A stretch of DNA of 56,425 nucleotides from an uncultured Cytophagia bacterium (lineage in GTDB: Bacteria; Zhuqueibacterota; Zhuqueibacteria; Oleimicrobiales; Geothermoviventaceae). The stretch covers positions 1 through 56,425 of the forward strand of contig CAYXFI010000001.1 in NCBI GenBank assembly GCA_964464205.1, in the 5' to 3' direction. The position numbers and the translations under genes were made by a program. The notes under the pieces are model-generated. The model was not told where the DNA came from and did no database searches. It worked only from the letters and a program-made list of their open reading frames with translations. This document shows positions 1 through 56,425 of the stretch, piece by piece. Within the stretch, counting starts at the first letter, position 1, and each line of letters starts with the position of its first letter.

Positions 1-199
1 GGGTGCTGCTCGGAGTACTCGAAGGGGTGCTGCTCGGAGTACTCGAAGGGGTGCTCGAAGAAGTCCCTGACGGAGGAGGATCGCTGGGAGTAGGAGTACT
101 CGAAGGGGTGCTGCTCGGAGTACTCGAAGGGGTGCTGCTCGGAGTGCTCGAAGGGGTGCTGCTCGGAGTGCTCGAAGGGGTGCTGCTCGGAGTTGACGA
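1..199 (-). repeat. Tandem 24-nt units encoding (SSTPSSTP)n on the minus strand
   Basis: Repeated ggggtgctgctcggagtactcgaa units visible directly. Related units occur at 56376..56425 and 48558..49617. Confidence 0.85.
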
Positions 200-20956: not shown

Positions 20957-21042
20957 GAGGGCGCTGGGCGCTCCGGCGCCCAGCGTAATCACGCCGCGGG
21001 AGCGTACCCCGCGCTGGCCCCCAGCCCAGAAGGAGCAACACG

Positions 21043-21264: not shown

Positions 21265-21267
21265 TCG

Positions 21268-40827: not shown

Positions 40828-43800
40828 TCAAGGCAGATTCAATTTCAGCCGGAGTTTGCGGCGTTTTGGAGCCGGACGGCGCGCCTGGTAGGTTTGGAGT
40901 CCCACGCCGAAGATCGCCAGAAGGCTCAGCGCGGCGCCCTTCGGAACACCTTGCTCCCGCATCGCTTCGTAGATATCTCGCGTCGTGATCGGGATCAAGG
41001 CATCCTTGGCCAGCGAGACAGCGGTAACCTTCTCCCCAACGATGTTTTCACCGTTGAAGTAATTGGCGATGCCTCCAAGCCAGGGGGACAGCTTTGTCCG
41101 CATGAATCGCCCCACCGTTCCCATAGTCGTTCGGCCGCCGTAGGGACGCTCCGGACCCCGGAGAGCGACAACCCGCCCGCCGGCGGTCTTCCGCTTGCCC
41201 AGAATGACCTGGGATGACACAACAGCGGTCTGGGACAGGCCGGCCAGCGGGTCGAGTCGCGTGTTGCCGAATCGGATCTTCCCGAAATCCGTGGACAGCG
41301 GGTTGATCTCGATTTTCGGGATGTTGTCGTCGTCAGCGCCCATCGCCGCCATAGCGCCGCCGATCAGAGCGAGTGACCCGTAGAACAGCCCGTAGCCCAT
41401 CAGTGCTCGCCCGTATTCCTTGGCAATCAGTTTCCGGGCCTGATTGGCGTCGCCCCAGGCAATATGCCCTTCCTTCTTGAGCGGTTTCCAGAGCGGGTAG
41501 CCGATCATCAGTTGAAAACGGCTCATCACGTATCGCGGAGCGAAAAACGTTATCCCAAGGTTCTGGGCTGAGCGCTCCAGGGCGCCAAGGGGCCCTCGGC
41601 CTGTTGCGATGTTGACGTAATCTGCGATCAGCTTCGCCTCGTCCATCGTGATTTCGCGGTCCCGGGCGATCTTGTCCGCCATCTGATCGAACAGATCCGC
41701 CCGCATCTTGTTCAGAACCGTCACGTAGGCCCGTTCCGAGCCGCGGACCCCAGCGCCGAGCCAGCCGCCTGTGCCCGCCTTCTTGAACAGATGTCCAGCA
41801 TACGCCTCTTCCTGGGCGGTGAAATCGCCGAGAATGTCGGTGATCGCCAACCCGGCGCGGTAGTAGATCGGAGCGTTCTCGCGGTTGCGGATCTCCTCCA
41901 TGACCTCGAAATGCGACTGATCGCTCAGAGCTGACTCGATCATCGGTCGGACCGTGTTTTTCGTCAACTTCGGATGAGAAGCTGCAACCCAGCCGCCTTG
42001 CCGCAGCAAGCCTGAGAACTCAAAGCTCGTCAAAACCGCTCTGGACGTGTTGAGTGTGCGAGCTATCATGTCGAACCCGCGTTCCACTGTGTTGAACTTC
42101 TCTCGCTCCAGAACCTCCTGGTAGAGCCTGATCTCCTTTTTCGCCTGCTCGATCTTGTAGAGAACGTCGAGCTGCTCCTGGGTGTGCTGCCGCTCAGGGC
42201 GCCGGCGCTTAGCGAAGTCGCCGCGGGCGATCCGATCGAGATAATCGGCCAGTCGTTTCTGGAGCTGGGCATTGTAGGCGTAATCCGGCCGCTCCTTCTG
42301 CCTCAGGGCCTCTCGCTCTGCTTTGAGTGCTTCGAGGCGAGCGCGCCGGGCGTCGATCGCTTCGCTGCGGCGGACCGTACGAGGCTTCCCCCAGATCCGC
42401 CCTTCCGCCAGATCCTTCTCCATGTTCTTGATGAGTCGATCCAGGGTTTTAACGGTCCGGCGCTCCAGCTCTTCCTCGGTCGGCGGCGCTTTCGGGAACA
42501 CCTGTCGATGCAGCTTCTTGACTTCAGCCAGCTGGCGGCGAAGCTCCTTGAGCTCTGCGTCTTCCTCCAGCTTCACCTTGTCGCGAGTGATCCGCTCCTT
42601 GTGGGCGATCTCGTACTGCATGTCCCGGATCGAGTTCCGGATCGCCGTCTTGACGCTCGAAAGGGTGGTTTTGAGCCTCCGGGCCGGGTCAAAGGGCCCA
42701 AATTTCGCCAATTTCATGGCCTCGCGGACTTTCTTCTCCAACCGGCGCTGCTCATCCTCCGGCCGATACTGCTCCATGCCCTTCTTCGGCGGCGCTTTTC
42801 CGTTCTCGATGTCGATCAATCTGGCGATTTGGGTGAGCTCGCCGCGGATGCGGCGAACTTCCTGAAGCACCTCGGTCTTGTTGAGCGGCCGGAAGCGGTC
42901 GTAGGCGGCGATTGCTTTGAGAGTGTCCAGACGGCTCCAGGACTCGCCAAACATCTCAGACAGTTCCCCGTGGACCTGATCCGCAATCTCTTCCCGCATC
43001 GCCGCTTTTTCCTCGTCGCTGCGGCCTTCCAGCGTTCTGCCCTCCTCGGCCCAGGAAGTGACGATCGACTTGACCATTTTGTAGGCCAGGTCGTAGATCT
43101 CCTCGGTCTCTTCCGTGGTCACGTCGAACGTGTCGGAGGCGAAGTCCAGCTTTGCCTGTTTCCAGCCCTCGCGGGCCAGGTCGTGGTACTTGGCGGCCTC
43201 GTCCTCGCCCAAATCGACCTTGAGATTCTGGAAATACTCCTGGAACGTGACGACACCCAGCTCCATGTAAGCCGCGGCGACATTGGCGGCGTCCCGGATG
43301 ACCTCGGGCGGGAACCCGCCGATCGTCGCCGTTTCACCCCGGGCGAACGACTTGAGCGACTCGCGGAGTTTGGCGACTGCGGCGTCTTTCTTGCTCCGGG
43401 CCGCCCGGCGCCGCTTCGACTCGCGCCGGCGCCCGGGGCGCTCCGCTGGCGGGATCGGCTCAGCGCCGGGTCCGCGCCCCTCCGGCGCAGGTCCAGCGCC
43501 TCTTTTCACTTCTTCCCTCGCCTCGGCGACGGTAGCGTCGAAGGCGTCCTGGATGAGAAGATCCTCGAACTGATCCTGCCAGCCCTTGATTTGCTCGGCG
43601 AGCTTCTGAAGCGTCGCCAGTTCCTCCGACGTGAGCGCCGCGCCCTTGGACGCCATGACGCGCCGGGTGAGCCCCGCGAGGCTGTAGTCGGCCGCCAGGA
43701 CGACTTTGCGAGCCATGAGGGAGTAACTGGCGCGGGTGCCCGCCTCCTTCGTCGCCGACTCGACGGAGCGGATCTTTTCGAGCAGCTCCATCTGGCGGTC

Positions 43801-46800
43801 GGCGGCGAGTTTCTTGGCGGCGGTGTCCCCGGCCTCTGATGCGGCGACGAATTCCTTGGTCGCCGACTCCAGCTCATTCTGGAGTCTGACGTAATGCAGC
43901 AGCATCGCGGCGTGCTCGCGCTCCGTAAGCACGTCGGTCGAGGTCGCGATCTTCGCAACCAGCTTGTTCGGCAGGTCTGGGTCCGTCAGAAGCATTCCGC
44001 TGGCATCTTCCACCCATTCGGAGAACGTCTCAGAAGTTTCTCGGGTGGGAGGCAGCGCAGCCTCGCCGCGGACAGCACGCTGGACCTCCACCATCGCGTT
44101 TTTGAGCGAGTAGACGGTTTCGGCGACGTCCATGAGCTCCGTTTCAGGCGGACCGCTCGGTTCGCTGGGCCCCTCGGGCGGCGGATGCGGCGTCTCTTCT
44201 GGCGCGAGTTCCATACCTTCCGGCCCGAGCCGCTTTTGGTAGGAGTTCCACACGCGAGCCATCAGGGGGCGGATCTCATCGGCGTATTCGGCGCCCTGGG
44301 ACTCCGCAACGTTCTCCATGAGAACCTGGAATCGAGTTACGCCGATCTTGACCTGCGCAGCGACGTACTTCGCAACAGCGCGGATCAGCTCCGGGTCAAC
44401 GCCGACCGTGATCTTTTTCTTCTTGATGAGCTGGTTGATCGTATCCAGGGCGTCACTGGACTCTTTGTAGAGCCGATCGAGCTTCTCGGCCTTTGTTTTT
44501 GGTGCGGCTTCTTCTTGTGCAGCTTTCTCTCGCTGGGCTTTATCTTTTGCGAACTCTTCCGGGGTCATCCTCGCCTTATCGATCCACCGCTCTCGCTTCT
44601 TCCTGGAAGGCTTTTCCTCTTTCTTTCTCAGCCGTTTGTTGCGAGCTTCTTCCGTCTCGCCGAATTCAGCAAGCTCGTTCTCTCGCATGAACCAATCGGC
44701 GAGCTCATCGGCTGTTGCAGCGTCCCAATCCGGAGGCTGCATTTCCAGCTCGACGTTTGCCTGTTCAATGTCTTCCGGTCTGATGTCCTCTTTCAGATAA
44801 GGAAGGTAGGCAGCATCACCAAGTTCACTTTCCAGGCGATCGGCAACGGTTTGAAGCCACTGGGGGTTGTCAAGACGGAATGTCTCGCGCTTCGCCGGCG
44901 CAGGACCGAGTTTTACCAAAAGATCAGCATAGGCTTGAGCGTCGGCCATCGGATCTTCAGTATCCTCGAACTTGACTTTCGCAAACAGATCAGGAAAGTC
45001 ATAAGAAAGACTCATTGCGGCATCATCAAGACCCTTGAAGTATCGCCAGTCGTGTTCCTCCAGAACCTTGTAGTCACCCGGTTTGAACTTCGCTAACTCG
45101 CGAGCGCGCCGCTCGAAGTCCTTAACATGCTGCCACTCGGCTCTTGCTTCCCTGTAGCCCCTTTGCACTTCCTCTACAAACAGCCCAGGGATTATTCCTT
45201 GTTTCTCTGCGAAGTCGAGGATGTTTTCATCGATGTCCTTGATTTCCTCGACCAGGTTGATTTTCGACTTTCCCTTGTAGGCAAGGCCGCGGTTCTCGGC
45301 TTCTTTTCTGAGCGCAACAACGCTGTAGTCCTTCGCCTTCATGCCGCGCCATCGGCCCTTCCGCTCTCGTTTGGGACGCGGCTTTGTCGGCTCAGGCGGA
45401 GGGGGTTTCCTTAGCTGTACTTGCTTTTCTTCTTGTGGCGGCTTTTCTTCTGATACTTGCTGCTCCTCTTGTCCGCCTCGACGAACTCCCTCGCCACCTT
45501 CTGGCTCGGGCCCTTGAACCGGCTCGGTTTCCACCCGTGTGCGATCGCCAGCATCAGGCGGTGCTGTTTCCTGCTCTTGGACGGCATCGGTTGTTTCCTC
45601 CTCTAACGTGGCTTCCTGCTCTTGGATGATCTGTTCGATCTCCTCCTCGTGCTCTCGAACGTACTCCTCGCGCTGTTTCGCGCTGTCCGTGTCGCCTTCC
45701 GGCAACTCAGCTTCTTTCTTCAGCTCATTGACCTCGCGGCGAGACGGAGCTTCTCCCTTCTTGACCTTTTGCTTGACCGTTTCCCAGATCTCGCGGCGGT
45801 TCTGGACAGCTTCTTTCGCTTTGGAAACGACAGGCGGCGCAATCTGAGGGGACTCGACAAGCCCGACTGTCATCAACGTTTGCACCGTCGTATCAAACGC
45901 AGTTTGAAGAAGACGACCAGGGGTTGTCGCCTCGGGATCAACACCTGAGAAGCTGCTTGCGACGTTATGGCCGAGCTCCGTAATGAGCTCTTCCGGCACC
46001 TCCTCTAGCGCCGTGATGCCGGCTTTCTTCAGACCCGAAACGATCCCGATGCTAGCAGCTTCAGCTCCTTTCTTCCCGAAGAGTTTCCCGAGCTGTTTCT
46101 CGACGCCGCCGAGCCCAAGTCGCTGAAAAACGATCGCGGGAACTGCCTCAATCACCCCTTGCCCCGCAATGTAGCGAGTCAGCTCAGGACCCTTAAGTCC
46201 TGCGTCCCAACCTTCTGTCATCGCCCGATCGGCTTCATCGGCCGCGGCAAGCCCGGTCGCTCCGTAGGGCCCAGCAACAGCTGCTCCAGCCACCATCGTT
46301 GGGAGCATGACGGCAACGCCGCGAGCTGCGCGTTTGAGCCAAGCTGGAGTCCAGCTGTTTGATTGCTGCTCTTGCTCTTCGATCGCCTGACCGATCGCTG
46401 CTGACTTTCGCTGAAGCCGGCCCATCGTGCCAACGTCGCCGGCTGCGCTGCTCGCCATTGCTCCGATGTTGGCGCCCAATTGTCGCAGCACCGCTTCCGC
46501 GTTCGGCATCGCAGAATCCTTGAGCTGCTCACGCGCCGTGGAAAGCTCGGATTCTTTCTGCCTCTGGGCGTCGAGCCTGCTCAACCGCTCCCGTTCCTTG
46601 TCGTGGAGCTGCATCAGTGTTTCCGGCTTTGCGCCCTTCGGAATGTCTAGCTCGAACTGATACCGGCCGCCCTTACCGCGGAGGTATCGGTCGCCCTCGA
46701 TGAGGCCGAACTGCTCGCCTTTCTTGAGCTCGCCTCGTTGATACGCCTTGAAGGCATCGAAGTAAGTCTTGAAGTGGCGCAGCCGCTCAACGGGAACATC

Positions 46801-47085
46801 AAGCTGCTTTACTGGCGCAGCTGCTCCGCTTTCCGGAGTCTTGAGCGGAAATAGCGGTCTGAACCCCAGCGCTCGCATTTCTTCGGGAGAGGGAGCTCGG
46901 CCGCCTGGGCCTACTGCTGCTGGAAACAGCGGCCGAAGCCCTCTTGCCCGCATCTCCTCCGGAGTCGGGCCGAGTGGAGCTTGCGGCTCAGCAGATCGCT
47001 TCTTGGGGCGTCGTTTCCTACCGCCCCACAGCAACAAGGAGTTGCCGGGCGACCCCTGATCAAGAAATTCCTCGTAAGCCGGCAT
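40828..47085 (-). CDS. Giant (~2085 aa) virion-block protein; ejection, internal or tape-measure-like candidate
   Basis: ATG 47085 lies 2 nt after the upstream stop (the ORF track start at 47100 is TTG). Long charged helical regions. SAP/HeH-like SVVALRKEAENRGLAYKGKSKINLVEEI. N-terminal duplicate PEEMRA.G.RPLFP. C-terminal hydrophobic helices (ALMGYGLFYGSLALIGGAMAAMG). Confidence 0.65.
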   Translation of the reverse strand: MPAYEEFLDQGSPGNSLLLWGGRKRRPKKRSAEPQAPLGPTPEEMRARGLRPLFPAAVGPGGRAPSPEEMRALGFRPLFPLKTPESGAAAPVKQLDVPVERLRHFKTYFDAFKAYQRGELKKGEQFGLIEGDRYLRGKGGRYQFELDIPKGAKPETLMQLHDKERERLSRLDAQRQKESELSTAREQLKDSAMPNAEAVLRQLGANIGAMASSAAGDVGTMGRLQRKSAAIGQAIEEQEQQSNSWTPAWLKRAARGVAVMLPTMVAGAAVAGPYGATGLAAADEADRAMTEGWDAGLKGPELTRYIAGQGVIEAVPAIVFQRLGLGGVEKQLGKLFGKKGAEAASIGIVSGLKKAGITALEEVPEELITELGHNVASSFSGVDPEATTPGRLLQTAFDTTVQTLMTVGLVESPQIAPPVVSKAKEAVQNRREIWETVKQKVKKGEAPSRREVNELKKEAELPEGDTDSAKQREEYVREHEEEIEQIIQEQEATLEEETTDAVQEQETAPPDAGDRTRVETEPVQGPEPEGGEGVRRGGQEEQQVSEEKPPQEEKQVQLRKPPPPEPTKPRPKRERKGRWRGMKAKDYSVVALRKEAENRGLAYKGKSKINLVEEIKDIDENILDFAEKQGIIPGLFVEEVQRGYREARAEWQHVKDFERRARELAKFKPGDYKVLEEHDWRYFKGLDDAAMSLSYDFPDLFAKVKFEDTEDPMADAQAYADLLVKLGPAPAKRETFRLDNPQWLQTVADRLESELGDAAYLPYLKEDIRPEDIEQANVELEMQPPDWDAATADELADWFMRENELAEFGETEEARNKRLRKKEEKPSRKKRERWIDKARMTPEEFAKDKAQREKAAQEEAAPKTKAEKLDRLYKESSDALDTINQLIKKKKITVGVDPELIRAVAKYVAAQVKIGVTRFQVLMENVAESQGAEYADEIRPLMARVWNSYQKRLGPEGMELAPEETPHPPPEGPSEPSGPPETELMDVAETVYSLKNAMVEVQRAVRGEAALPPTRETSETFSEWVEDASGMLLTDPDLPNKLVAKIATSTDVLTEREHAAMLLHYVRLQNELESATKEFVAASEAGDTAAKKLAADRQMELLEKIRSVESATKEAGTRASYSLMARKVVLAADYSLAGLTRRVMASKGAALTSEELATLQKLAEQIKGWQDQFEDLLIQDAFDATVAEAREEVKRGAGPAPEGRGPGAEPIPPAERPGRRRESKRRRAARSKKDAAVAKLRESLKSFARGETATIGGFPPEVIRDAANVAAAYMELGVVTFQEYFQNLKVDLGEDEAAKYHDLAREGWKQAKLDFASDTFDVTTEETEEIYDLAYKMVKSIVTSWAEEGRTLEGRSDEEKAAMREEIADQVHGELSEMFGESWSRLDTLKAIAAYDRFRPLNKTEVLQEVRRIRGELTQIARLIDIENGKAPPKKGMEQYRPEDEQRRLEKKVREAMKLAKFGPFDPARRLKTTLSSVKTAIRNSIRDMQYEIAHKERITRDKVKLEEDAELKELRRQLAEVKKLHRQVFPKAPPTEEELERRTVKTLDRLIKNMEKDLAEGRIWGKPRTVRRSEAIDARRARLEALKAEREALRQKERPDYAYNAQLQKRLADYLDRIARGDFAKRRRPERQHTQEQLDVLYKIEQAKKEIRLYQEVLEREKFNTVERGFDMIARTLNTSRAVLTSFEFSGLLRQGGWVAASHPKLTKNTVRPMIESALSDQSHFEVMEEIRNRENAPIYYRAGLAITDILGDFTAQEEAYAGHLFKKAGTGGWLGAGVRGSERAYVTVLNKMRADLFDQMADKIARDREITMDEAKLIADYVNIATGRGPLGALERSAQNLGITFFAPRYVMSRFQLMIGYPLWKPLKKEGHIAWGDANQARKLIAKEYGRALMGYGLFYGSLALIGGAMAAMGADDDNIPKIEINPLSTDFGKIRFGNTRLDPLAGLSQTAVVSSQVILGKRKTAGGRVVALRGPERPYGGRTTMGTVGRFMRTKLSPWLGGIANYFNGENIVGEKVTAVSLAKDALIPITTRDIYEAMREQGVPKGAALSLLAIFGVGLQTYQARRPAPKRRKLRLKLNLP

Positions 47086-47087
47086 GA

Positions 47088-47906
47088 TCACGGTCCCCAA
47101 GCGTTGCCGTACATGTCTCTCGAAATACCGAGTATTTTGTTGGCTTCTGTTATGGCTTCCTCGGTACTCATCCCTTCATTTGAACTTTTCAGATCGGCGA
47201 TCAGTGCGGCTCTCTTCTCCATCAATGCGGCTCTCGCTTCCTGCAACTGCTGTTGTTGCTGAGCTTCGAGCATCTGTTTTCGTTGTGTCTCGGACACAAG
47301 CTGACCAACCCCGCCACCCTGTAGAGGATATGACCCCGGGTATTCCTCCTTTGTCCAACCAACAACCCTTTGCTTCATCATCTCTTCAGGAGAAAGCGGC
47401 TGGTATCCCTTTGCCAAGATGCTGTCGATCTCATCATGAAGAAGCCGCTTGCGGTTCAGGTAATCAGTATAGTCCCCTCCGCCATGGGCCTGTTGATTCC
47501 GCCACTGCTTCTCTAACTCATCGAGGTTCTGCTTCGCCTTCTCCAGGGCGATCTCTTGAGACTGATCCAGCTGGAGCTTCCCCTTCGTCTTGTCGGCCAG
47601 CATGTCTCGGCGCCGCCAGCCCTGGAGCATCTGGTCGCGCAAGGTGCGCTCGCCGAAGCGAGACCTGGCGTACTTCTCCTGGAAGGAAAAGCCGCTCTGC
47701 TGCATCTCCTGGCGATTCCGCCAATCTTCTGCCTGCATCTCCCGGCGGTTTTGCCAGTCGGTTTCTTGCATCGCCTGGCGATTTTGCCAGTCTTGGTTTT
47801 GCTGCCAGATCCCCAGTTGAGCCAGCGATGCAATTCCAGGTCCGCCCATCCCCGTGCGAACGCCTCGATACCCGCTACCGCCGCCGTATTTGAGCCTAAT
47901 GGGCAT
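47088..47906 (-). CDS. Q/N/R-rich helical protein (272 aa)
   Basis: ATG 47906 (MPIRLKYGGG). Three DWQNR..MQ 11-aa repeats. Confidence 0.5.
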   Translation of the reverse strand: MPIRLKYGGGSGYRGVRTGMGGPGIASLAQLGIWQQNQDWQNRQAMQETDWQNRREMQAEDWRNRQEMQQSGFSFQEKYARSRFGERTLRDQMLQGWRRRDMLADKTKGKLQLDQSQEIALEKAKQNLDELEKQWRNQQAHGGGDYTDYLNRKRLLHDEIDSILAKGYQPLSPEEMMKQRVVGWTKEEYPGSYPLQGGGVGQLVSETQRKQMLEAQQQQQLQEARAALMEKRAALIADLKSSNEGMSTEEAITEANKILGISRDMYGNAWGP

Positions 47907-48558
47907 GGACAAGCTCCTTTTCCTTCTTTCGCCAATGAGGCTGGATCGGGACGTAAGCCGCGATCTTGACGGCCTCGTCGATCTGCTCCTGTGTTGGCTC
48001 AATTCCCAAGTCGTCGATCAGGCGCAAGACGTGACCGAGCGGGTCGTCCACGTACCGCCTCGACTCGACAAAAATCGCGTCGTGATTAAGAGCTGCGTCG
48101 GCCGACTCCGCCCACAGCTTGCTTTCGATCTTGCATACCCACCTCCTAGACCAGTGCATCTGGAAGCGGAGCGCCTCGAAATGGCTCTCGGTGAATAACA
48201 GCTCCGGACGAACGTAGCAGTAAATCACCTTCGTGTCATCGCCCCACGCGGCAATCACATCATCAACGCAGAGAGAAAGCATCGGATGCGACAGCGCGTA
48301 ATGCTCGCTCTCCATTTCAGCGTACATCGCCCATTCCGTGAAGAAGCCATGCCGCTCCGCTCTGGAGGCTTCGTCACTCATATCGGGGAGCGGGAACCAT
48401 TTCATGATCGCTTCTTTCAGGAGCGGGTCCCTGTACGCGCAGATCGGAGACTTCTCGATCGCGAACTTTCGCATTCCGAGCAGGACGCCGAGGCGATGCA
48501 GGATGCCGGCTATCCTGAACATGCTCGAATTGTAGGTTCCGATCGTGATGGCTTTCAT
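47896..48558 (-). CDS. Hypothetical 220-aa protein, tentatively sulfotransferase-fold
   Basis: ATGA overlap with the upstream mucin-like gene. KAITIGTYNSSMFRIAGILHRLG, AYRDPLL and C-terminal YVDDPLGHVLRLIDDLGI loosely resemble sulfotransferase 5'-PSB, 3'-PB and C-terminal signatures. A weak match, judged by eye. Confidence 0.5.
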   Translation of the reverse strand: MKAITIGTYNSSMFRIAGILHRLGVLLGMRKFAIEKSPICAYRDPLLKEAIMKWFPLPDMSDEASRAERHGFFTEWAMYAEMESEHYALSHPMLSLCVDDVIAAWGDDTKVIYCYVRPELLFTESHFEALRFQMHWSRRWVCKIESKLWAESADAALNHDAIFVESRRYVDDPLGHVLRLIDDLGIEPTQEQIDEAVKIAAYVPIQPHWRKKEKELVHAH

Positions 48559-50618
48559 GGCGCTGGTGATGGAGATGGAGAAGGCGTCGGTGTTGGAGTC
48601 AACGTTGCCGAAGGCGTGTTCGATGGAGTCGAACTCGGCGTATTCGACGGGGACGAGGACGGCGTTGAGGATGGAGTTTGCGAGGGAGTCTGCGAAGGAG
48701 TGCTGCTCGGAGTCTGCGAGGGAGTCTGCGAGGGAGTCTGCGAAGGAGTGCTGCTCGGAGTCTGCGAGGGAGTCTGAGAAGGAGTCTGCGAAGGAGTTTG
48801 CGACGGAGTCTGCGAGGGAGTCTGCGAAGGAGTCTGCGAAGGAGTCTGCGACGGAGTCTGCGAGGGAGTCTGAGAAGGAGTTTGTGAGGGGGTGCTGCTC
48901 GGGGTGCTGGAAAGCGTACTCGAAGGAGTTGAGCTCGGAGTCGAGCTTGGCGTGCTCGTTGGTGTTGTGCTCGGCGTGCTAGAAGGCGTCGAACTTGGGC
49001 TCGGCGTACTAGAAGGCGTCGAGCTGGGCGTTGAGCTAGGACTGGGCGTGCTACTTGGCGTCGAAGACGGCGTGCTGCTCGGAGTCGAGCTTGGGCTCGG
49101 CGTTGAACTGGGCGTGCTGCTTGGCGTCGAGCTGGGACTCGGAGTCGAGCTGGGAGTGCTGCTGGGAGTCTGCGAAGGCGTCTGCGAAGGCGTCTGAGAA
49201 GGAGTTTGCGAAGGCGTCTGAGAAGGAGTTTGCGACGGGGTCTGCGAGGGCGTCTGAGAGGGTGTCTGAGAAGGTGTCTGCGAAGGAGTGCTGCTCGGAG
49301 TCGAACTCGGGCTTGGTGTGCTAGACGGCGTACTAGACGGCGTGCTGGATGGAGTCGAGCTCGGGCTCGGCGTACTCGACGGCGTTGAAGAAACCGTACT
49401 TGACGGCGTTGAAGAAACCGTACTCGACGGAGTGCTGCTCGGAGTCTGAGAAGGCGTCTGCGAAGGAGTGCTACTAGGAGTTGAGCTTGGACTCGGCGTG
49501 CTACTCGGCGTTGACGAAGGAGTTGAACTCGGAGTACCTGACGGAGAACTTGAAGGAGTCGAACTTGGCGTACTGGAGACAGTGCTGGAAGGAGTTGAAC
49601 TCGGAGTGCTGGAAGGAAGTATTCCTCCACAATCGCCGGCGTTCAGAACAAACCAAAAATCCGCAACCATTCGCGGCGGGTGAATGTACACCAGCGTTCC
49701 AACAGGAAGATATCCGGCAACGTTCAACGGATGATTTTCAACGATACCAATGGCATCTAGAATACGAACCTCGCAATCTGTTAATGCTATTTGATTAGCA
49801 AACCCTTCGCTCAAAAGATACGCATGATCACTAAGGATCTTGGCATAACCAGTGCTACATGGTGGCAAGACGGTTGTCAAAATAGCTCTTCTGAGACGTT
49901 CCGCTCTCCATGTTCGTCCTGCTGTATTCAAGTCCATCCAGAGTATTGGATTACCATCATAATCAGTGAGCGCATCGTATGGATCATCTGACGAAACAGT
50001 ATAACCAACCCACTCCGGCCTAGCTTCATAGTTATCTAAATCCCTTCCAAGATCCCCGGGGTATGGGTGTTCTGAATTATAAACTGCTGACTTCGGAACG
50101 TTCTCTCCATGGATGCCCCACATTCTAGCGGCAACAATGAGCTCGCCGATATAGTAAGCTGGCCACACAGTCTCGAAATACTGTATCTCTTCGATTCCTT
50201 CTGGGCCTCCTTCCACTACCTGGGTTTTGTATTCAACAGTTCTGTAGTACGGCAAATAGTGAGAAAAAGAAGGCGGGGGGTTTTGGTATCGCTGCGATGT
50301 TTCTGGATAACTGCTATAGTTGCCCGGGTTATGCTCTTCTCGCTTCCCGAAATCAAATTGCTTGCCGTAAATCCGAAATGATTCACGCAACAATGGAGGC
50401 CGTGCAACGTTCACTGATTCTAAATATGAACGGTGAAATGGGTCCCAGCCTTCACACTCAAGGAAGTCTGCATGAATGTACTTGACCCGCATGACCGCCA
50501 GATAGGACGGTTGGGGCAGAATGCCTAGAGGCGCAGTCGCTCCGGTCCTGGGGTCCCAGGGAGGCTCCTGACGAAATTCAGGAGCCAGCTTTCGGTATCG
50601 CTTTGGAGGCCTTGCCAT
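48555..50618 (-). CDS. Virion-block protein: ~335-aa globular head plus ~350-aa Ser/Thr/Pro tandem-repeat (mucin-like) tail
   Basis: Repeat tail of SSTP, SQTP and PSPS units running to the C terminus. In the structural gene block. Confidence 0.75.
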   Translation of the reverse strand: MARPPKRYRKLAPEFRQEPPWDPRTGATAPLGILPQPSYLAVMRVKYIHADFLECEGWDPFHRSYLESVNVARPPLLRESFRIYGKQFDFGKREEHNPGNYSSYPETSQRYQNPPPSFSHYLPYYRTVEYKTQVVEGGPEGIEEIQYFETVWPAYYIGELIVAARMWGIHGENVPKSAVYNSEHPYPGDLGRDLDNYEARPEWVGYTVSSDDPYDALTDYDGNPILWMDLNTAGRTWRAERLRRAILTTVLPPCSTGYAKILSDHAYLLSEGFANQIALTDCEVRILDAIGIVENHPLNVAGYLPVGTLVYIHPPRMVADFWFVLNAGDCGGILPSSTPSSTPSSTVSSTPSSTPSSSPSGTPSSTPSSTPSSTPSPSSTPSSTPSQTPSQTPSSTPSSTVSSTPSSTVSSTPSSTPSPSSTPSSTPSSTPSSTPSPSSTPSSTPSQTPSQTPSQTPSQTPSQTPSQTPSQTPSQTPSQTPSQTPSSTPSSTPSPSSTPSSTPSSTPSPSSTPSSTPSSTPSSTPSPSSTPSSTPSSTPSPSSTPSSTPSTTPTSTPSSTPSSTPSSTLSSTPSSTPSQTPSQTPSQTPSQTPSQTPSQTPSQTPSQTPSQTPSQTPSQTPSSTPSQTPSQTPSQTPSSTPSQTPSQTPSSTPSSSPSNTPSSTPSNTPSATLTPTPTPSPSPSPAP
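48558..49617 (-). repeat. ~1.06-kb array of 12-nt (4-codon) S/T/P-coding units
   Basis: ggagtctgcgaa / ggagtctgcgag / ggcgtgctgctc type units visible throughout. Confidence 0.9.
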
Positions 50619-50619
50619 G

Positions 50620-52635
50620 TCACTCGGAAGCCCATTGGGTCGGTCCAGACGCCGCCAGGTCCATGATCATCTGCGTGATGTGAGGGAAATCCACGTACTC
50701 GTCGGTGCGGCGCTCCATGAAGCCGAACATGCCGACTGCTAGGTTGTTGCGGGCGTCCAACTGGAACTTCATGAGGTTTTGCTGCGCGTTGTTCACGTCC
50801 GTCAACCCGCCGGCGAACTGGAACCGCGTCTGCATCGCCATCGCCGCCGTGCGCTCGCGGACCCCGCTCAAAAACTGACCGGCCGCAATTGCCTGTTGCG
50901 TGTACCGAGCAAGGCTGGAGCCGTGCTGCTCAATGTACCGGTTCAAAAACGTCAAGATCTCCTGCTGCGACCTGGATGCGAACGCATCCACGGCATTTCT
51001 GGCCGCAAGCTCCTTGTCGTAGAGATTGGTGGTTTGCTGCCGGACACGGTTCAATGCCTCGGCAAACCGCTGCCGATTGCCGATTTTCATCTCTTGGATC
51101 GCACGGCGCAAAACGTAGACGCGATCCTTCCCTGCAATCACCGCCTGTCGGGCCTGCTGACCCCAGCTGAACACCTTCTCGCGGACAGCCGATTCCTGAG
51201 ACAAGAAAACGTTGCGAGCGTCCTTGATCGATCCATGAAGCCCAACAATGATCTTTTTCAGGCTGACCGACTGCTCGTAGAGTTTCGCCGACCACTCAGC
51301 TCGATACTTGAGCGCCGCCGAAATCAAGCTATGAATGTAGGCCTCGCCGGCAGTCTGCTTATCTCGGACCTTGAACAACTGACCGTAGAGCATGTGCTCG
51401 TTCTGGAGCTTCTCTCGCGCCAACCGGTCGTTGTGCTGTCCGAGATCCTCGCTCCGCTCCCGCTCCGCAAGAGCATCGATCGTGGTGATCAATGCCGAGG
51501 AGTAGAACCCGCGATCGGTGAGCTTCTGCCGATTCTCCGCCTTCACGTTATCCCACTTCTCATTGATCCGAGCCGTCTCAGTCGTCCCAAGATCCACCAG
51601 CAACGCTCGCGTTGTCGCCGCGTGAGTCGTGTAATCCGAGACGAACAGATTCAGAATCGTCCGATAGGTCCCCTCGTGACCGTCAAGCTCAGTGTCCAAG
51701 TCGCTCAGGTAGCCGTTCACCGCGCTGGTAAGCGAGTTGAGCTCGCTCTCCATTGACGTGATCGCCGATAGCGTCTCGGTGCGGTAAGTGGTGTAGGACT
51801 CCTCAAAATCATCGATCAGCGCGAGAAGCTGAGTCTCAACCGTCGTAACCGCAGTTTCCAACGCCGCCAGCTTCGCCTCGTAATCCGTCACATGAGTTGA
51901 CAGGGTTGCATCGTCAGCGGTTTCCAGACCAAGGACCTCGTTCCTCAACAGCGTGTGATCCGTTTCGAGCTGAGTAAGCATACCAGCAACGCGAGACGTG
52001 AACTGAGTAAGGCTCGTCCCTTGAGTCGTCAGAAGACTCTCGATCTCCGCTTTGAAACTACTGTTCCCAGATTCCAGCTCGTTCAGCTTCGCCACAAACG
52101 CATTCAGCTTATCAACCGCATCGTCGAACACAGAAGCAGAATCAACCCGCGTCATGTCCAGATAGAAGTCGATCTGCGAGATGATCGAGTCAAGCGTGTT
52201 GACGAACAGCGTCTCATACGCATTGCTCGCATACGCTTGGCGGTTCAGATGCGAGTGGGTGTGGCTCAGAAGATCCGAGTACATCACCACGAGGTCGTCG
52301 TAGCGAGTGTCGTTGAGATTACGACCCTCGTTAAACAGGGAAATATACTTCAGGAGAAGCGTATTCAAGCCGGTCTTGTTCTTGAACGAAGTCCTCCGCA
52401 GCTTATACTTGCGCTCCGGCGGCCTTCCATCCACCTCTTGACTCTCGACGACCACCCATCCCTGAGCAAGCAACCACCCAAGCTCCCGCTCGCTTACCCA
52501 CTCGTCATTTTCAATCGGGTCCGGAATGGTCTCTTCTTCAAACCAGTTCGTGACGTCGATATTGGCCGCAGGCGCAGGGTCCTGGTCGTGCCAGTACGCA
52601 TACGGGTATGCGTATTCCATTCCGCCGATGGTCAT
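50620..52635 (-). CDS. Helical, coiled-coil-rich virion-block protein (671 aa)
   Basis: Long ORF, tightly packed. No motif recognised. Confidence 0.55.
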   Translation of the reverse strand: MTIGGMEYAYPYAYWHDQDPAPAANIDVTNWFEEETIPDPIENDEWVSERELGWLLAQGWVVVESQEVDGRPPERKYKLRRTSFKNKTGLNTLLLKYISLFNEGRNLNDTRYDDLVVMYSDLLSHTHSHLNRQAYASNAYETLFVNTLDSIISQIDFYLDMTRVDSASVFDDAVDKLNAFVAKLNELESGNSSFKAEIESLLTTQGTSLTQFTSRVAGMLTQLETDHTLLRNEVLGLETADDATLSTHVTDYEAKLAALETAVTTVETQLLALIDDFEESYTTYRTETLSAITSMESELNSLTSAVNGYLSDLDTELDGHEGTYRTILNLFVSDYTTHAATTRALLVDLGTTETARINEKWDNVKAENRQKLTDRGFYSSALITTIDALAERERSEDLGQHNDRLAREKLQNEHMLYGQLFKVRDKQTAGEAYIHSLISAALKYRAEWSAKLYEQSVSLKKIIVGLHGSIKDARNVFLSQESAVREKVFSWGQQARQAVIAGKDRVYVLRRAIQEMKIGNRQRFAEALNRVRQQTTNLYDKELAARNAVDAFASRSQQEILTFLNRYIEQHGSSLARYTQQAIAAGQFLSGVRERTAAMAMQTRFQFAGGLTDVNNAQQNLMKFQLDARNNLAVGMFGFMERRTDEYVDFPHITQMIMDLAASGPTQWASE

Positions 52636-52647
52636 GATGCAGTCAGC

Positions 52648-54969
52648 CTATTTGCAAACGAAAATCAAAATCAACGTTACCGTGTCGGCGTCTCCATCCG
52701 CCCCGGTCGCGTCACAATTGATCTCCATGTCGTCGTCTTCGTTGAACGTGTAGTACGACGCATCGATACCGACAGCCGCAGAATCAACCCAAACTCCCGA
52801 CGCGCCGAGCTGAATCCCTTTACCCGAGTTCTCCGTCAAGATGTCGTGCCACGCCGCGCCCTGGTAAACCCGAATGTTGAAGTAGGGCTGAGCCGTCGTG
52901 TCCGCAACGTACTGCGTTCCTGATACGCTCACCAAGCAAGCATCCGGGCCCCGCCACTTGAAAAACTCACCAACGATGTCCTCAAGCATCGTCGCCTTGG
53001 AAGTCCCGCCATCAGGTGAGACCCACGGGACCAAGTACGCGCCGGAGATCCTGACTTCCTTCGTCTTAATCAACCCCGGATGACCGACGCGAAGATCGTC
53101 GATCCCGACACCAGCATCTAGAGCAGCGCCACGGATCGTGATGTAACTGTCCGTTACGACCGTAGCAATCACGCCGTAGTAATAGGTCCCGCCATACTGA
53201 TACCGCAAAGGAAGCCCTACTTCCATCTGCGATGTATCGGACATGTTGATCCGAGTCGTGCTCGCCGGAAGAGACGTATAATCCGCCTCGGGCACGATCT
53301 TCCAGCGCGCTTCCTGAAGCTCCAGCGCCTGGCTCAGCGTGATCCTCTTCAGCGCTGCGCTGTCCTCGGAATCCTGGATCAGAATCTCATCTTCGACAAC
53401 CGGATCTGTCTTCGCGTCCACCGCCTCCATGTTCGCCTGGATCGTTGTCCAAACGAAACTGGTAAGCGACGTGACCGTTGCCTTCTTCGGCGTCGTCGTC
53501 TGCGTAATCGCGATGTAATCCGTCCCAGCAACCGTGCCCGTGTCCAACGACGAGAAATCGAGCAGGTCGCTCTGGAGCTCTCCAGAGATATACGTCTCGA
53601 TCATCTGGCCGGTGACTTTGCGGTAACCGGTTCCGCTGCGGTACATGAGAAACTGGTCGCCGTCTTCAACGGTAGTCCCAGCCGTCTGATCCCAGGTTTC
53701 CGTGATCATGTACGTCGCCAAGTCGCTGGCGGCGATGTAATAGGACGTGTCGTTCCTGTCCACAAGGAACAGATCAGTATCGACGATCGGATCAGCGTCG
53801 CCCTGATCGCCCACATATGCGGCGATCGTGCTGCAAACGTAGGTGGCGACCGCGGAATAGGTCGCCTTCTTCGCTGTCGAGCCGTCCAGAACAAACGCGA
53901 TGTGATTGTTAGCGATCGTCGCCGTCGCCAAGCCGCTGATGTCTAGAACATCCGCCTGCACGCCGTCAAGCACCTCAGACGTGAAGTTTTCCTGAGTGAT
54001 CACCGTTAGGGCGCCGCTCCGACCCAACAATACGTAGTCACCGGCCGCAAATGTGGTGACCGGGGTTACCGAGGCGTCCGCGAGGATCTCGGTGCTCATG
54101 TAATCCGCCAGAAGCGCAGCCGTGATCGTCTTCTCCGTCCCGCTCCGGAACAGAGGAAACACGTCGGCGTCCACAATCGGGTCTGCTGAAGCAGCGCCGG
54201 AGAGCAGCGTCAGTGTGTAGGCCCCCAGCACAGCCCCCGTGACCGTCTTGGGGACGTCGCTGCGCTCGCAGACGAAAACATCGGTCCCCTGCGCCGGGTC
54301 CACCGCGGAAGCGTCCCAGGCCGTTGCGACGATCGCCGTCGCCTCCTCAGAAGTCACGTAATCCGCCAAATCGGACAGCGCGAGCTTCTTCGCCGTCCCG
54401 CTCTGCGACAAGTACACCAGATCCGCATCAGCGAGGGCCCCGGCGGCATCTAAAGCGACCAGGTAAGCGTCGAACTGAGAATGGGCCCGGGCCGCAATCG
54501 CCGTCCAAGTTGTCTTCTTCCCAGTCGAACCCTGGCAGACGAGATACTGATCCGCGTCGCTGAGAGTCGCAACGGACAGCTCCGAGATGTCGAGGACCGT
54601 TGCCTGAATCCCAGTCAAGACGTAGGTGGACACCGTGTCGATGTCCAGCTCGTAGATCGTCCCTCCACGGTTCACGAGGAACTTGTCAGCCGCGTTAGCC
54701 GGGTCCGCCTCACTGGCGACGCTCCAGCCAGACGCCACGCAGTAGGCCGCCAGATCATCCAGATCGAACAGCTTTTCCGTCCCGCTCCGTTCGGCAACCA
54801 CGTTGTCGCCCGTGGTGGGCGTCGCAGACGAGGCTCCCAGGAGCGTGTCGATCGTGAACGCCGATTGAGTTGCCAGCGTCGTCTGTTTCATCACGCTTGA
54901 CTGGAGACAAGCGATAATCTCGTCACCGTCCAGCGCCCCGGCCGCCGGCAAAGCTGTATATTGCGGCAT
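52648..54969 (-). CDS. Repeat-module fibre or appendage-like protein (773 aa)
   Basis: 13 copies of a ~28-aa core (e.g. DADLVYLSQSGTAKKLALSDLADYV, DADVFPLFRSGTEKTITAALLADYM) spaced ~40-45 aa apart over aa 12-544, followed by a distinct C-terminal domain. Confidence 0.65.
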   Translation of the reverse strand: MPQYTALPAAGALDGDEIIACLQSSVMKQTTLATQSAFTIDTLLGASSATPTTGDNVVAERSGTEKLFDLDDLAAYCVASGWSVASEADPANAADKFLVNRGGTIYELDIDTVSTYVLTGIQATVLDISELSVATLSDADQYLVCQGSTGKKTTWTAIAARAHSQFDAYLVALDAAGALADADLVYLSQSGTAKKLALSDLADYVTSEEATAIVATAWDASAVDPAQGTDVFVCERSDVPKTVTGAVLGAYTLTLLSGAASADPIVDADVFPLFRSGTEKTITAALLADYMSTEILADASVTPVTTFAAGDYVLLGRSGALTVITQENFTSEVLDGVQADVLDISGLATATIANNHIAFVLDGSTAKKATYSAVATYVCSTIAAYVGDQGDADPIVDTDLFLVDRNDTSYYIAASDLATYMITETWDQTAGTTVEDGDQFLMYRSGTGYRKVTGQMIETYISGELQSDLLDFSSLDTGTVAGTDYIAITQTTTPKKATVTSLTSFVWTTIQANMEAVDAKTDPVVEDEILIQDSEDSAALKRITLSQALELQEARWKIVPEADYTSLPASTTRINMSDTSQMEVGLPLRYQYGGTYYYGVIATVVTDSYITIRGAALDAGVGIDDLRVGHPGLIKTKEVRISGAYLVPWVSPDGGTSKATMLEDIVGEFFKWRGPDACLVSVSGTQYVADTTAQPYFNIRVYQGAAWHDILTENSGKGIQLGASGVWVDSAAVGIDASYYTFNEDDDMEINCDATGADGDADTVTLILIFVCK

Positions 54970-56367: not shown

Positions 56368-56425
56368 CTAAGGAGGATCGCTGGGAGTAGGCGTGCTCGA
56401 AGGGGTGCTGCTCGGAGTACTCGAA
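56368..56425 (-). CDS. 3' end of an S/T/P-repeat ORF (...SSTPSSTPSSTPTPSDPP*), probable continuation of 1..451
   Basis: Hand translation. TAG at 56370-56368. Same frame as 1..451 under the 23-nt overlap. Confidence 0.5.
   Translation of the reverse strand, partial: SSTPSSTPSSTPTPSDPP

What the first reader, a model, noticed from the sequence alone, without database searches (positions are those of the whole stretch)
48555..50618. 687-aa virion-block protein with a ~350-aa mucin-like S/T/P tandem-repeat tail and a low-G+C head domain
The C-terminal half (nt 48558-49617) is an almost pure array of 4-residue units (SSTP, SQTP, PSPS). That is ~1.06 kb of 12-nt repeats, far longer than an ordinary linker, and it runs to the C terminus. 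The globular N-terminal part (nt ~49640-50618) is visibly AT-richer than its surroundings: lines 49801-49860 and 49921-49980 count 43% and 42% G+C. This suggests a horizontally exchanged module, as is common for receptor-binding parts. Such a repeat is also slippage-prone, so its length may be variable or collapsed in assembly.
Basis: seen in the sequence. Interest (0 to 1): 0.7.

Follow-up and report, generated by a model that had tools for sequence, protein, structure and literature searches.

The report
Mucin-like tail protein of a podovirus
This gene encodes a tail protein of an uncultured phage whose rear half is a 352-residue serine/threonine/proline array, and because such arrays occur only in relatives that also carry the same sugar-transferase gene cassette, the array is probably a carrier for phage-made sugars.

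Summary
ORF 48555-50618(-) encodes 687 aa. The head is aa 1-335. The tail is aa 336-687 and is 89% S/T/P (37 SSTP, 28 SQTP, 10 SP units). The head lies in the lowest-G+C kilobase of the window.

New findings:
- The dip is purely synonymous: GC3 is 0.44 in the head and 0.56 in the tail, against 0.71±0.06 in 29 other genes. It stops at the gene borders and is absent from orthologues, so the whole gene looks recently imported.
- The array is codon-scrambled (30 different 12-mers for 37 SSTP units, no repeated 51-mer). It is therefore neither very slippage-prone nor likely collapsed.
- The phage is a podovirus. The gene three upstream folds as an SU10/T7/P22-type nozzle.
- The head belongs to an unannotated family (46 representatives) that sits at a fixed position in the tail module. 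Its N-domain (~240 aa) is conserved and its C-termini vary, some being tail-fibre/collar-like.
- The window carries a GT2-methyltransferase-GT2-methyltransferase cassette (3388-6399) and a second SSTP array inside the nozzle gene.
- Among 16 related genomes, 5 of 5 with this cassette have arrays and 0 of 11 without it do. This includes a four-genome out-of-sample test.

Best reading: a tail appendage whose array is O-glycosylated by the phage's own enzymes. Glycosylation is inferred, not shown.

The parts
48555..50618 (-). 687-aa tail-module protein (whole gene, stop included)
   Evidence: ORF list. It starts 1 nt after the stop of the upstream gene, and its stop overlaps the ATG of the next gene (ATGA). 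It occupies the same position in relatives.
49884..50618 (-). Conserved N-terminal domain, aa 1-245. It has a basic N-terminus and the motifs DFLECEGWDP, VARP, PAYYIGE and WMDLNTAGRTW. Putative virion-docking domain.
   Evidence: 46 homologues in 1.84 billion representative proteins (best E 1.5e-28), aligned as A2. Some homologues consist of this domain alone (172-190 aa). In the AF2 model the core has pLDDT above 90 and is beta-rich. No significant fold match in PDB or BFVD.
49614..49883 (-). Second small domain, aa 246-335. It is shared only with the P0002/L003/L036 subgroup and ends in ...FWFVLNAGDCGG just before the array.
   Evidence: BLASTP against P0002 aligns aa 26-329 with aa 28-309 (29% identity, E 1e-23). 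In P0002 a short S-rich linker starts at the homologous point. Model confidence here is low (pLDDT 37-82).
48558..49613 (-). 352-aa S/T/P array (SSTP/SQTP/SP units) running to the C-terminus. Putative O-glycosylation carrier.
   Evidence: Composition and unit counts. Codon scrambling and both Ser codon boxes in use. GC3 0.56.
48673..48902 (-). Most regular part of the array (48-nt period, 4.8 copies, 90% matches). This is the only stretch where recent expansion or slippage is plausible.
   Evidence: Tandem Repeats Finder. The longest exact repeat, 50 nt, lies here.
3388..4377 (-). Glycosyltransferase family 2 (GT2a, 329 aa)
   Evidence: Pfam PF00535, E 3.5e-10. 58-61% identical to the GT2 that sits next to the nozzle gene in L016, L020, L033, L037 and L038.
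4320..4982 (-). SAM-dependent methyltransferase (220 aa)
   Evidence: Pfam Methyltransf_11, E 2.9e-14.
4979..5710 (-). Glycosyltransferase family 2 (GT2b, 243 aa)
   Evidence: Pfam PF00535, E 8.8e-12. 39-40% identical to the second GT2 of L033, L037 and L038.
5707..6399 (-). Methyltransf_24 / TylF-like (sugar O-)methyltransferase (230 aa)
   Evidence: Pfam PF13578, E 2.6e-20. Orthologues occur in the cassettes of L021, L033, L037, L038 and L041.
1..451 (-). First part of a 161-aa ORF: the N-terminal 77 aa of the ancestral nozzle protein followed by a second SSTP array. The ORF runs across the contig junction.
   Evidence: The 77 aa match the first ~80 aa of nozzle orthologues in about 20 relatives.
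56368..56425 (-). End of the same ORF: ...SSTPSSTPTPSDPP, then a TAG that is in frame with the ATG (56358) of the nozzle body. The 23-nt terminal repeat of the window lies here.
   Evidence: After the 23-nt overlap is removed, the circularised ORF is in frame.
54979..56358 (-). Nozzle body (459 aa), beta-propeller
   Evidence: AF2 pLDDT 91.5. Foldseek PDB hits: SU10 7z4b/7z47 (E 2e-13), Pa223, VP1, T7 9jyz, P22 9jg6.
1600..2820 (-). Adaptor-like protein (406 aa)
   Evidence: 56% identical to the L002 409-aa protein, which carries PF24175 SU10_adaptor (faint). The same family is weak or unmarked in L036, L039 and L040.
50620..54969 (-). Two large syntenic tail-module proteins (773 aa at 52648-54969; 671 aa at 50620-52635) between the nozzle gene and the gene in question
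   Evidence: Orthologues in the same order in L001-L004, L030, L036, L038 and others.
40828..47100 (-). Giant 2090-aa protein that closes the module in all relatives
   Evidence: 31% identity over 1544 aa to the L002 2040-aa protein. Counterparts of 1907-2388 aa occur in L001, L037, L038, L040 and L041.

Best explanation
The gene encodes a tail appendage protein of an uncultured podovirus. Its conserved N-terminal domain (aa 1-245), present at the same place in the tail module of all relatives, would dock the protein on the tail. This is inferred from synteny and from the conserved-N / variable-C pattern. The C-terminal 352 aa would be a disordered, extended Ser/Thr/Pro chain, roughly 90-110 nm if fully stretched (the model covers only aa 1-340, so this is inferred from composition). 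I propose that this chain is the substrate of the phage's own GT2-methyltransferase-GT2-methyltransferase cassette (3388-6399). The enzymes would O-glycosylate Ser/Thr in the cytoplasm before or during assembly, probably with methylated sugars. The virion tail would then carry mucin-like glycan brushes, on this protein and on a nozzle fragment that bears a second SSTP array. The likely uses of such a brush are weak multivalent adhesion to polysaccharide-rich surfaces or gels, or a hydrophilic shield. The data do not decide between these. The present gene copy, head and array together, was probably acquired recently from a lower-G+C relative. Shown: the anatomy, the family, the synteny, the nozzle fold, the cassette, the co-occurrence and the codon anomaly. 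Inferred: docking, presence in the virion, glycosylation and the function of the brush.
For: - Tail context. The gene lies between the nozzle gene (fold match to SU10, T7 and P22 nozzles, E 2e-13) and the giant terminal protein. Gene order is conserved in more than 10 relatives.
- Family pattern. 46 homologues share aa ~1-240. Their C-termini are absent, small, or 200-450 aa, and some hit PHROG tail-fibre/collar families (P0010 586-645, E 4e-9 to 8e-9).
- Cassette. Two GT2 enzymes and two methyltransferases lie inside the structural block.
- Co-occurrence. All 5 dereplicated genomes with the GT2-GT2-Methyltransf_24 cassette have arrays: the window, L033/34, L037, L038 and L041 (51-563 array residues, on 1-5 proteins each). 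None of the 11 without that cassette has any. Fisher p = 2.3e-4. This total includes a prediction made before looking at four new ~50-kb genomes, of which only L041 has the cassette and only L041 has arrays.
- More than one lineage. The window's nozzle clusters with cassette-free genomes, so the association does not rest on a single clade.
- Cassette position. In relatives it sits immediately upstream of the nozzle gene, and two of them add sulfotransferases.
- Shared motif. The two arrays of the window use the same motif (S about 40%, T 22-23%, P 25%, SSTP) but share at most 14 nt of exact sequence. Relatives use SSSP/SPSA. This fits a genome-specific constraint such as enzyme specificity.
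- Selection on the protein. Synonymous scrambling and use of both Ser codon boxes indicate selection on composition, not on DNA.
- Precedent. Glycans on the C-termini of the capsid and tail-tube subunits of mycobacteriophages, added by phage glycosyltransferases (Freeman et al. 2023, as cited in PMC12619734 and PMC11256854).
Against: - No glycan has been observed, and the targets of the GT2 enzymes are unknown. Phage glycosyltransferases can also modify DNA or host surface polysaccharide (PMC12619734).
- The 16 genomes are not phylogenetically independent. Four of the five positives belong to one nozzle clade.
- Several negative loci cover only 12-19 kb.
- L036/L003 carry a different glycosyltransferase set and only a 17-31 aa S-rich linker. 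L006 has a single GT1-like gene and no arrays.
- The head has no recognisable fold match, so docking on the tail rests on context alone.
- The array has no distal domain, unlike in relatives L009 and L041, where arrays link to globular domains. It could therefore be the remnant of a linker.
- Presence in the virion is not shown.
Confidence: 0.55

Rival explanations
1. The array is an unglycosylated flexible spacer or entropic bristle, like Pro/Thr-rich linkers between protein domains. The glycosyltransferase cassette would serve another purpose, such as DNA or host-surface modification.
For: In relatives, arrays do link folded domains. In L009 the order is nozzle body, a ~390-aa array, then a ~210-aa domain. 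In L041 it is array, then a ~160-aa domain. P0002 and P0020 have short S-rich linkers at the homologous site. Phage glycosyltransferases have other known roles (PMC12619734).
Against: A pure linker does not explain why arrays occur only in genomes with the cassette (5/5 against 0/11, including the out-of-sample test). It also does not explain arrays that end proteins with nothing attached, as in this protein, the 146-165-aa proteins of L033/L037/L038, and the P0105 nozzle. The cassette is embedded in the late structural operon, next to the array-bearing genes.
Confidence: 0.2
2. The gene is a decayed or mis-assembled fibre gene. The array would be an over-expanded linker whose distal receptor-binding domain has been lost, or was cut off by a frameshift or mis-join within the repeat. 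On this view the tail has no function of its own.
For: The closest full-length relatives (P0002, L003, L036) have a ~55-aa Cys-rich knob after the S-rich segment, and this knob is missing here. The other array of this genome is where the assembly closed, on a 23-nt overlap, and it is followed by an in-frame TAG. The downstream 220-aa ORF overlaps the stop codon (ATGA).
Against: No 51-mer recurs within the array, and the two arrays share at most 14 nt, so a mis-join is unlikely. The reading frame stays open for 352 codons with 89% S/T/P, and synonymous sites are scrambled, which indicates purifying selection on the protein. The 220-aa gene has native GC3 (0.75), unlike this gene, and has its own ATG. 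Terminal arrays without a distal domain recur in relatives.
Confidence: 0.12
3. The protein is an internal or ejection protein, like the T7 core proteins encoded after the nozzle gene, rather than an external appendage. The disordered tail would help it pass through the tail channel.
For: In T7-like gene order, the genes after the nozzle gene encode internal core proteins (general knowledge). This gene lies between the nozzle gene and a 2090-aa protein that could be a core or ejection protein. The head has no fibre-like fold match.
Against: Homologues carry tail-fibre/collar-type C-terminal domains. C-termini are hypervariable while the N-domain is conserved, which is the pattern of exposed host-interaction proteins. 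Arrays also sit on the nozzle itself in this genome and in relatives.
Confidence: 0.08

Closest known systems
Glycosylated virion proteins of mycobacteriophages (Che8 and relatives; Freeman et al. 2023, Cell Host Microbe 31:1216, known here through PMC12619734, PMC11256854 and PMC10877033)
   Same: Phage-encoded glycosyltransferases, and glycans placed on the C-termini of structural proteins of a tailed phage assembled in the cytoplasm. A glycan shield is the proposed role.
   Different: In those phages the carriers are the major capsid and tail-tube subunits of siphoviruses of Actinobacteria. Here the carriers would be podovirus tail proteins: this appendage protein and the nozzle, plus fibre-like and small proteins in relatives. 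The arrays are long tandem S/T/P repeats of up to about 350 aa. The cassette includes methyltransferases and, in relatives, sulfotransferases. No glycan has been demonstrated here. I could not read the original paper.
Bacterial serine-rich repeat glycoproteins (Fap1, GspB, PsrP type)
   Same: Hundreds of residues of Ser-rich short repeats, glycosylated in the cytoplasm by dedicated glycosyltransferases encoded next to the substrate gene, and forming extended adhesive fibrils (general knowledge; PsrP in PMC10269691).
   Different: Those are cell-wall-anchored bacterial adhesins exported by an accessory Sec system, with a binding region between two repeat regions. This is a phage tail protein with no signal peptide or anchor, and it has a Pro in every unit.
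Eukaryotic mucin PTS domains and Pro/Thr-rich glycosylated linkers of bacterial cellulases
   Same: Pro/Thr/Ser tandem repeats that are disordered and extended and serve as dense O-glycan carriers or spacers (general knowledge).
   Different: Those are made in a secretory pathway or periplasm with other enzyme families. In this protein the array is terminal and does not join two domains.
Podovirus tail fibre / receptor-binding proteins with a conserved N-terminal anchor and exchangeable distal part
   Same: Position in the tail module, a conserved N-domain, mosaic C-termini and a signature of horizontal exchange. Some homologues have collar-type tips.
   Different: Neither this protein nor the family's N-domain shows detectable sequence or fold similarity to any described fibre anchor. 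The distal part here is a low-complexity array, not a folded binding domain.

Membership tests
Phage tail fibre / receptor-binding protein (conserved anchor + variable tip) | Encoded in the tail gene module of a tailed phage | tested here: met
   The neighbour folds as a podovirus nozzle. The adaptor, nozzle, two large proteins, this gene and the giant protein keep the same order in relatives.
Phage tail fibre / receptor-binding protein (conserved anchor + variable tip) | N-terminal part conserved among orthologues, C-terminal part exchanged | tested here: met
   46 homologues align over aa ~1-240 only. Their C-termini range from none to 450 aa of unrelated sequence.
Phage tail fibre / receptor-binding protein (conserved anchor + variable tip) | Sequence or fold match of this protein to a described fibre/spike family | tested here: not met
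   No Pfam, PHROG, PDB-sequence or tblastn hit. Foldseek best E is 0.18 in PDB and 0.044 in BFVD. Only the C-termini of some homologues hit tail-fibre PHROGs.
Phage tail fibre / receptor-binding protein (conserved anchor + variable tip) | Present on the virion and binds a host receptor | not testable with these tools
   There is no isolate, and no relative among 50,697 phage records.
Che8-type glycosylated phage virion proteins | Phage genome encodes glycosyltransferases | tested here: met
   Two PF00535 GT2 proteins plus two methyltransferases at 3388-6399.
Che8-type glycosylated phage virion proteins | Structural proteins carry Ser/Thr-rich C-terminal extensions | tested here: met
   A 352-aa array on this protein and an 84-aa array on the nozzle N-fragment. 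Arrays are also present in cassette-bearing relatives.
Che8-type glycosylated phage virion proteins | Carriers are the major capsid and tail-tube subunits | tested here: not met
   The carriers here are tail-module proteins of a podovirus. A six-frame scan of the whole window found no other S/T/P array in a structural gene.
Che8-type glycosylated phage virion proteins | Glycans covalently attached to the virion proteins | not testable with these tools
   This needs mass spectrometry or glycan staining.
Bacterial serine-rich repeat glycoproteins | Long Ser-rich short-period repeats with dedicated glycosyltransferases encoded nearby | tested here: met
   Co-occurrence across relatives.
Bacterial serine-rich repeat glycoproteins | Signal peptide, cell-wall anchor and accessory Sec export genes | tested here: not met
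   The N-terminus is the conserved phage domain and the C-terminus ends ...SPSPSPAP. The Pfam scans run on 28 of the window's ORFs returned no Sec components.
Inter-domain Pro/Thr/Ser linker | Joins two folded domains | tested here: not met
   The array runs to the stop codon. The feature is met in relatives L009 and L041.

The most novel reading that the evidence does not exclude
A widespread, uncultured lineage of ~50-60 kb aquatic podoviruses carries a portable 'virion glycosylation kit': a GT2-GT2-methyltransferase cassette (sometimes with sulfotransferases) next to the nozzle gene, plus long Ser/Thr/Pro arrays grafted onto several tail proteins. This would give mucin-like, possibly methylated or sulfated, glycan brushes on the tail. 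It would be the first case of virion glycosylation outside actinobacteriophages and the first that uses mucin-type tandem arrays. In some members the array-bearing polypeptide keeps only a small piece of the nozzle (the N-terminal 77 aa here, the C-terminal strand in L038/L041). This suggests anchoring by complementation of a split protein.
Probability: 0.4. Interest if true: 0.8.

Novelty: new variant of a known kind. Interest (0 to 1): 0.66.

Why it matters
In the papers I could reach, protein glycosylation of phage virions is reported only for mycobacteriophages, where it changes immune recognition. If these arrays are glycosylated, the phenomenon extends to environmental podoviruses and takes a new, mucin-like form on the tail, the part that meets the host. 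That would bear on how phages stick to mucus, marine gels and cell envelopes. It would also offer compact enzyme-plus-substrate-tag pairs (a short SSTP or SSSP motif with its transferases) for glyco-engineering. In addition, the work defines an unannotated tail-protein family and shows that gene callers mis-handle these arrays.

Tried and rejected
- Pfam and PHROG scans of the protein gave nothing.
- tblastn against 50,697 phage records gave nothing.
- The word-indexed search of 5.8 billion proteins with the head gave nothing. Only the exhaustive HMMER search found the family.
- PDB sequence searches with the head and with the family profile gave only chance-level hits.
- The AF2 head model has moderate confidence (pLDDT 70). 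Foldseek against PDB and BFVD gave no significant match, only weak partial OB-fold-like similarities (IF1/eIF1A, gp5 N-domain, VgrG; probabilities up to 0.97 on fragments under 100 residues). I do not rely on these.
- Single-protein scans of viral contigs with the head, the 671-aa, the 773-aa and the adaptor proteins found no usable loci.
- A scan of GTDB genomes with the nozzle profile found no relatives, so there is no host clue.
- The window's own record could not be retrieved, and the 687-aa sequence is not in the protein collection.
- PDB sequence searches for the adaptor, the 773-aa protein and the nozzle found nothing.
- Literature searches for S/T/P arrays or glycosylation cassettes in podovirus tails found nothing relevant. 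The Freeman 2023 paper is not held.
- I rejected TAG recoding, because TAG ends 9 of 30 genes.
- I rejected cross-assembly of the two arrays, because they share at most 14 nt.
- I rejected amino-acid composition as the cause of the G+C dip, because GC1 and GC2 are normal.
Full report
**1. The observation**

The minus-strand ORF 48555-50618 (ATG start, 687 aa) exists as described. The protein splits cleanly at residue 335/336.

- The head is aa 1-335 (nt 49614-50618).
- The tail is aa 336-687 (nt 48558-49613). Of its 352 residues, 140 are S, 90 P, 84 T and 28 Q, which is 89% S/T/P.
- The tail is organised as 37 SSTP, 28 SQTP and 10 SP units plus a few variants, and it runs to the stop codon.
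- Tandem Repeats Finder sees periods of 12, 24, 36 and 48 nt over 48673-49613.
- The head has 48.6% G+C against 58.3% for the window. The 1-kb windows starting at 49201-49801 are the lowest in the whole 56 kb.

**2. The G+C dip is a codon-usage anomaly limited to this gene**

- GC1 and GC2 of the head (0.576, 0.442) equal the means of 29 other genes (0.593, 0.444).
- GC3 is 0.44 in the head and 0.56 in the array. The other genes average 0.71, with SD 0.058 and a minimum of 0.596.
- In 30-codon windows, GC3 falls from 0.87-0.97 at the end of the upstream gene to 0.27-0.50 inside this gene. It returns to 0.77-0.83 in the downstream gene. Only the first ~45 codons are intermediate.
- Orthologues in eight relatives have GC3 of 0.63-0.85, in line with their genomes.

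The simplest reading is recent import of nearly the whole gene from a lower-G+C relative. The gene is nevertheless tightly set in the operon: it starts 1 nt after the upstream stop, and its stop overlaps the next ATG.

**3. The array is a protein-level repeat, not a DNA-level one**

- The 37 SSTP units use 30 different 12-mers, and the 28 SQTP units use 14.
- Ser is encoded by both the AGY and TCN codon boxes.
- Adjacent units of the same type are only 73% identical in DNA, against 69% for all same-type pairs.
- The longest exact internal repeat is 50 nt. No 51-mer recurs, and only 40 of 1026 31-mers recur.

This indicates long-standing selection on amino-acid composition. It also argues against assembly collapse and against high slippage, except in 48673-48902 (48-nt period, 90% matches).

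**4. The phage**

- The window carries a terminase, an SU10-like portal (weak hit), a tail fibre gene, helicases and a primase.
- Its ends share 23 nt.
- No cultured relative exists. The terminase is 24-31% identical to those of various podophages, and the nozzle has no tblastn hit in 50,697 phage records.
- An AlphaFold model of the 459-aa protein at 54979-56358 (pLDDT 91.5) matches podovirus nozzle/tail-hub proteins: SU10 7z4b/7z47 (E 2e-13, TM 0.65), Pa223, VP1, cyanophage A4, T7 and P22.

The phage is therefore a podovirus. The gene order on the minus strand is: adaptor-like (1600-2820), a 248-aa protein, the nozzle, a 773-aa protein, a 671-aa protein, the 687-aa protein, a 220-aa protein, a 304-aa protein and a giant 2090-aa protein. 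The same order is found in related contigs of 40-62 kb from marine, saline and sediment metagenomes.

**5. The head**

- Pfam, PHROG, PDB and the phage genome records give nothing.
- An exhaustive HMMER search found 46 representatives (best E 1.5e-28).
- They share aa ~1-240: a basic N-terminus and the motifs DYLxCEGWDP, VAKP, PPYFVGD and WxDLNxAGRxW.
- After that point they diverge completely. Some are the N-domain alone (172-190 aa). Some add small domains. Some add 200-450 aa whose ends hit PHROG tail-fibre/collar families.
- The homologue sits at the same position in every relative examined. Its identity is lower than that of its neighbours: 33% against 47-60% for the flanking genes in L002.
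- The subgroup P0002/L003/L036 shares the whole head (aa 26-329, E 1e-23). At the point where the array starts here, it has a 17-31 aa S-rich linker followed by a ~55-aa Cys-rich knob.
- The AF2 head model (pLDDT 70, beta-rich) has no significant structural neighbour.

I read the N-domain as the virion-docking part of an exposed tail appendage whose distal part is exchangeable. This is an inference from context.

**6. What gives the tail its likely meaning**

- Pfam finds GT2 (3388-4377), Methyltransf_11 (4320-4982), GT2 (4979-5710) and a Methyltransf_24/TylF-like protein (5707-6399) inside the structural block.
- A second SSTP array lies at the contig junction. After circularisation it is a 161-aa ORF.
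- The first 77 aa of that ORF are the N-terminal segment of the nozzle as found in about 20 relatives.
- The array ends in a TAG that is in frame with the ATG of the 459-aa nozzle body.
- The two arrays of the window use the same motif (S about 40%, T 22-23%, P 25%) but share at most 14 nt of exact sequence.

**7. Comparative test**

Using nozzle orthologues I collected related genomes. I scored each for the GT2-GT2-Methyltransf_24 cassette and for S/T/P arrays.

- Cassette and arrays both present: the window, L033/34 (with two sulfotransferases), L037 (with one sulfotransferase) and L038. Arrays of 28-247 residues occur on the nozzle, a fibre-like 547-aa protein, a 598-aa protein, a 437-aa protein and small 146-165-aa proteins.
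- No such cassette and no arrays: L001/31, L002, L004, L005/6, L027, L030/32 and L035. L036/L003 also belongs here: it has other glycosyltransferases and only a short S-rich linker.
- Out-of-sample test: I then fetched four more ~50-kb genomes. Only L041 has the cassette, and only L041 has arrays (563 residues). L039, L040 and L042 have neither.
- Overall the score is 5/5 against 0/11 (Fisher p = 2.3e-4).

Caveats and context:

- The genomes are related, so the p-value overstates independence.
- However, the window's nozzle groups with cassette-free genomes. The other four positives form a second clade that also contains the cassette-free L005.
- The window's GT2a is 59-61% identical to the GT2 of that clade, while the nozzles are only 43-47% identical.
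- Short contigs L016, L020 and L021 have the cassette but end before the informative genes.
- L009 and L011 have arrays but lack the upstream region.

**8. Mechanism proposed**

The array would be a disordered, extended chain that the phage's own enzymes O-glycosylate in the cytoplasm, giving a mucin-like brush on the tail. The nearest precedent is glycosylation of the C-termini of capsid and tail-tube subunits of mycobacteriophages by phage glycosyltransferases (Freeman et al. 2023, as cited in PMC12619734, PMC11256854 and PMC10877033). Bacterial serine-rich repeat adhesins and mucin PTS domains are functional analogues, not relatives.

Glycosylation, virion location and the role of the brush (adhesion or shielding) are all inferred. 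The rivals are a plain linker, a decayed fibre gene, and an internal protein. Each has specific evidence against it, but none is excluded.

**9. Verdict**

- The finding is real and more interesting than a simple repeat.
- Its slippage and assembly worry largely does not hold for this array, although it does apply to the second array at the junction.
- The mucin analogy gains indirect but consistent support from the cassette and its co-occurrence with arrays.

Noticed in passing
window 1-451 and 56368-56425 (minus strand), with 54979-56358: The nozzle gene is interrupted. Its N-terminal 77 aa are followed by an 84-aa SSTP array with an internal duplication ([SSTP]9-TPSDPP...[SSTP]6-TPSDPP). 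Then comes a TAG that is in frame with the ATG of the 459-aa nozzle body, with AGGA 7 nt upstream of that ATG. In relatives this is a single ~530-aa protein. It could be a split gene, a readthrough site or a sequencing error.
   Followed up: partly
window 1-23 = 56403-56425: The 23-nt terminal repeat of the contig lies inside the second SSTP array, which is a near-perfect 24-nt repeat. Removing the overlap gives an in-frame ORF, so the circle is plausible, but the length of this array is uncertain.
   Followed up: partly
L038 11532-12347; L041 11551-13149: In two relatives the nozzle ORF stops about 10 aa early. The next ORF begins M(A/P)(R/K)SGQWRG, which is the canonical C-terminal strand of the nozzle, followed by a 247-357-aa SSSP array and, in L041, a ~160-aa domain. 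As in the window, the array-bearing polypeptide keeps only a small piece of the nozzle. This may indicate anchoring by fold complementation.
   Followed up: partly
L038 11615-12310 and L041 11547-12722: The public gene calls place minus-strand genes of 231 and 391 aa over these arrays. The plus-strand array frame is continuous with nozzle sequence, so these calls look like artefacts of the repeat.
   Followed up: no
L033 6207-8133; L037 7716-8336: Relatives add one or two Sulfotransfer_2 genes to the GT2-GT2-methyltransferase cassette, which hints at sulfated glycans.
   Followed up: no
P0059 (799 aa) and P0097 (804 aa), nozzle orthologues: Two nozzle orthologues carry ~270-aa insertions containing a GDSG(H/S)P motif of the kind found in trypsin-like serine proteases, at different positions of the propeller. 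L035 has a separate Trypsin_2 gene upstream of its nozzle gene.
   Followed up: no
window 40828-47100 (minus strand): A giant, highly charged 2090-aa protein with a hydrophobic C-terminal part closes the tail module. It is conserved in relatives at 1907-2388 aa and has no family match. It may be an internal or ejection protein.
   Followed up: no
window 20081-23798 (plus strand): A block on the opposite strand has the highest G+C of the window (0.65-0.67 at 22-24 kb). It holds a DUF6744 protein, a MoxR-type AAA+ ATPase (bpMoxR, E 6e-53) and a 472-aa protein matching phrog_24053. This resembles a MoxR-vWA type accessory system.
   Followed up: no
window 52648-54969 (minus strand): The 773-aa protein consists of repeated ~45-aa segments. 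BLAST gives several offset alignments to orthologues of 675-1155 aa, so its length varies by repeat number. In L037 its orthologue ends in a 56-aa SSSP array.
   Followed up: partly
window 7158-10145 to 2828 (minus strand): Relatives L005/L006 and L031 go straight from the 285-aa protein to the adaptor gene. Compared with them, the window has an insertion of about 7.7 kb that holds a 995-aa tail-fibre gene and the glycosylation cassette.
   Followed up: partly
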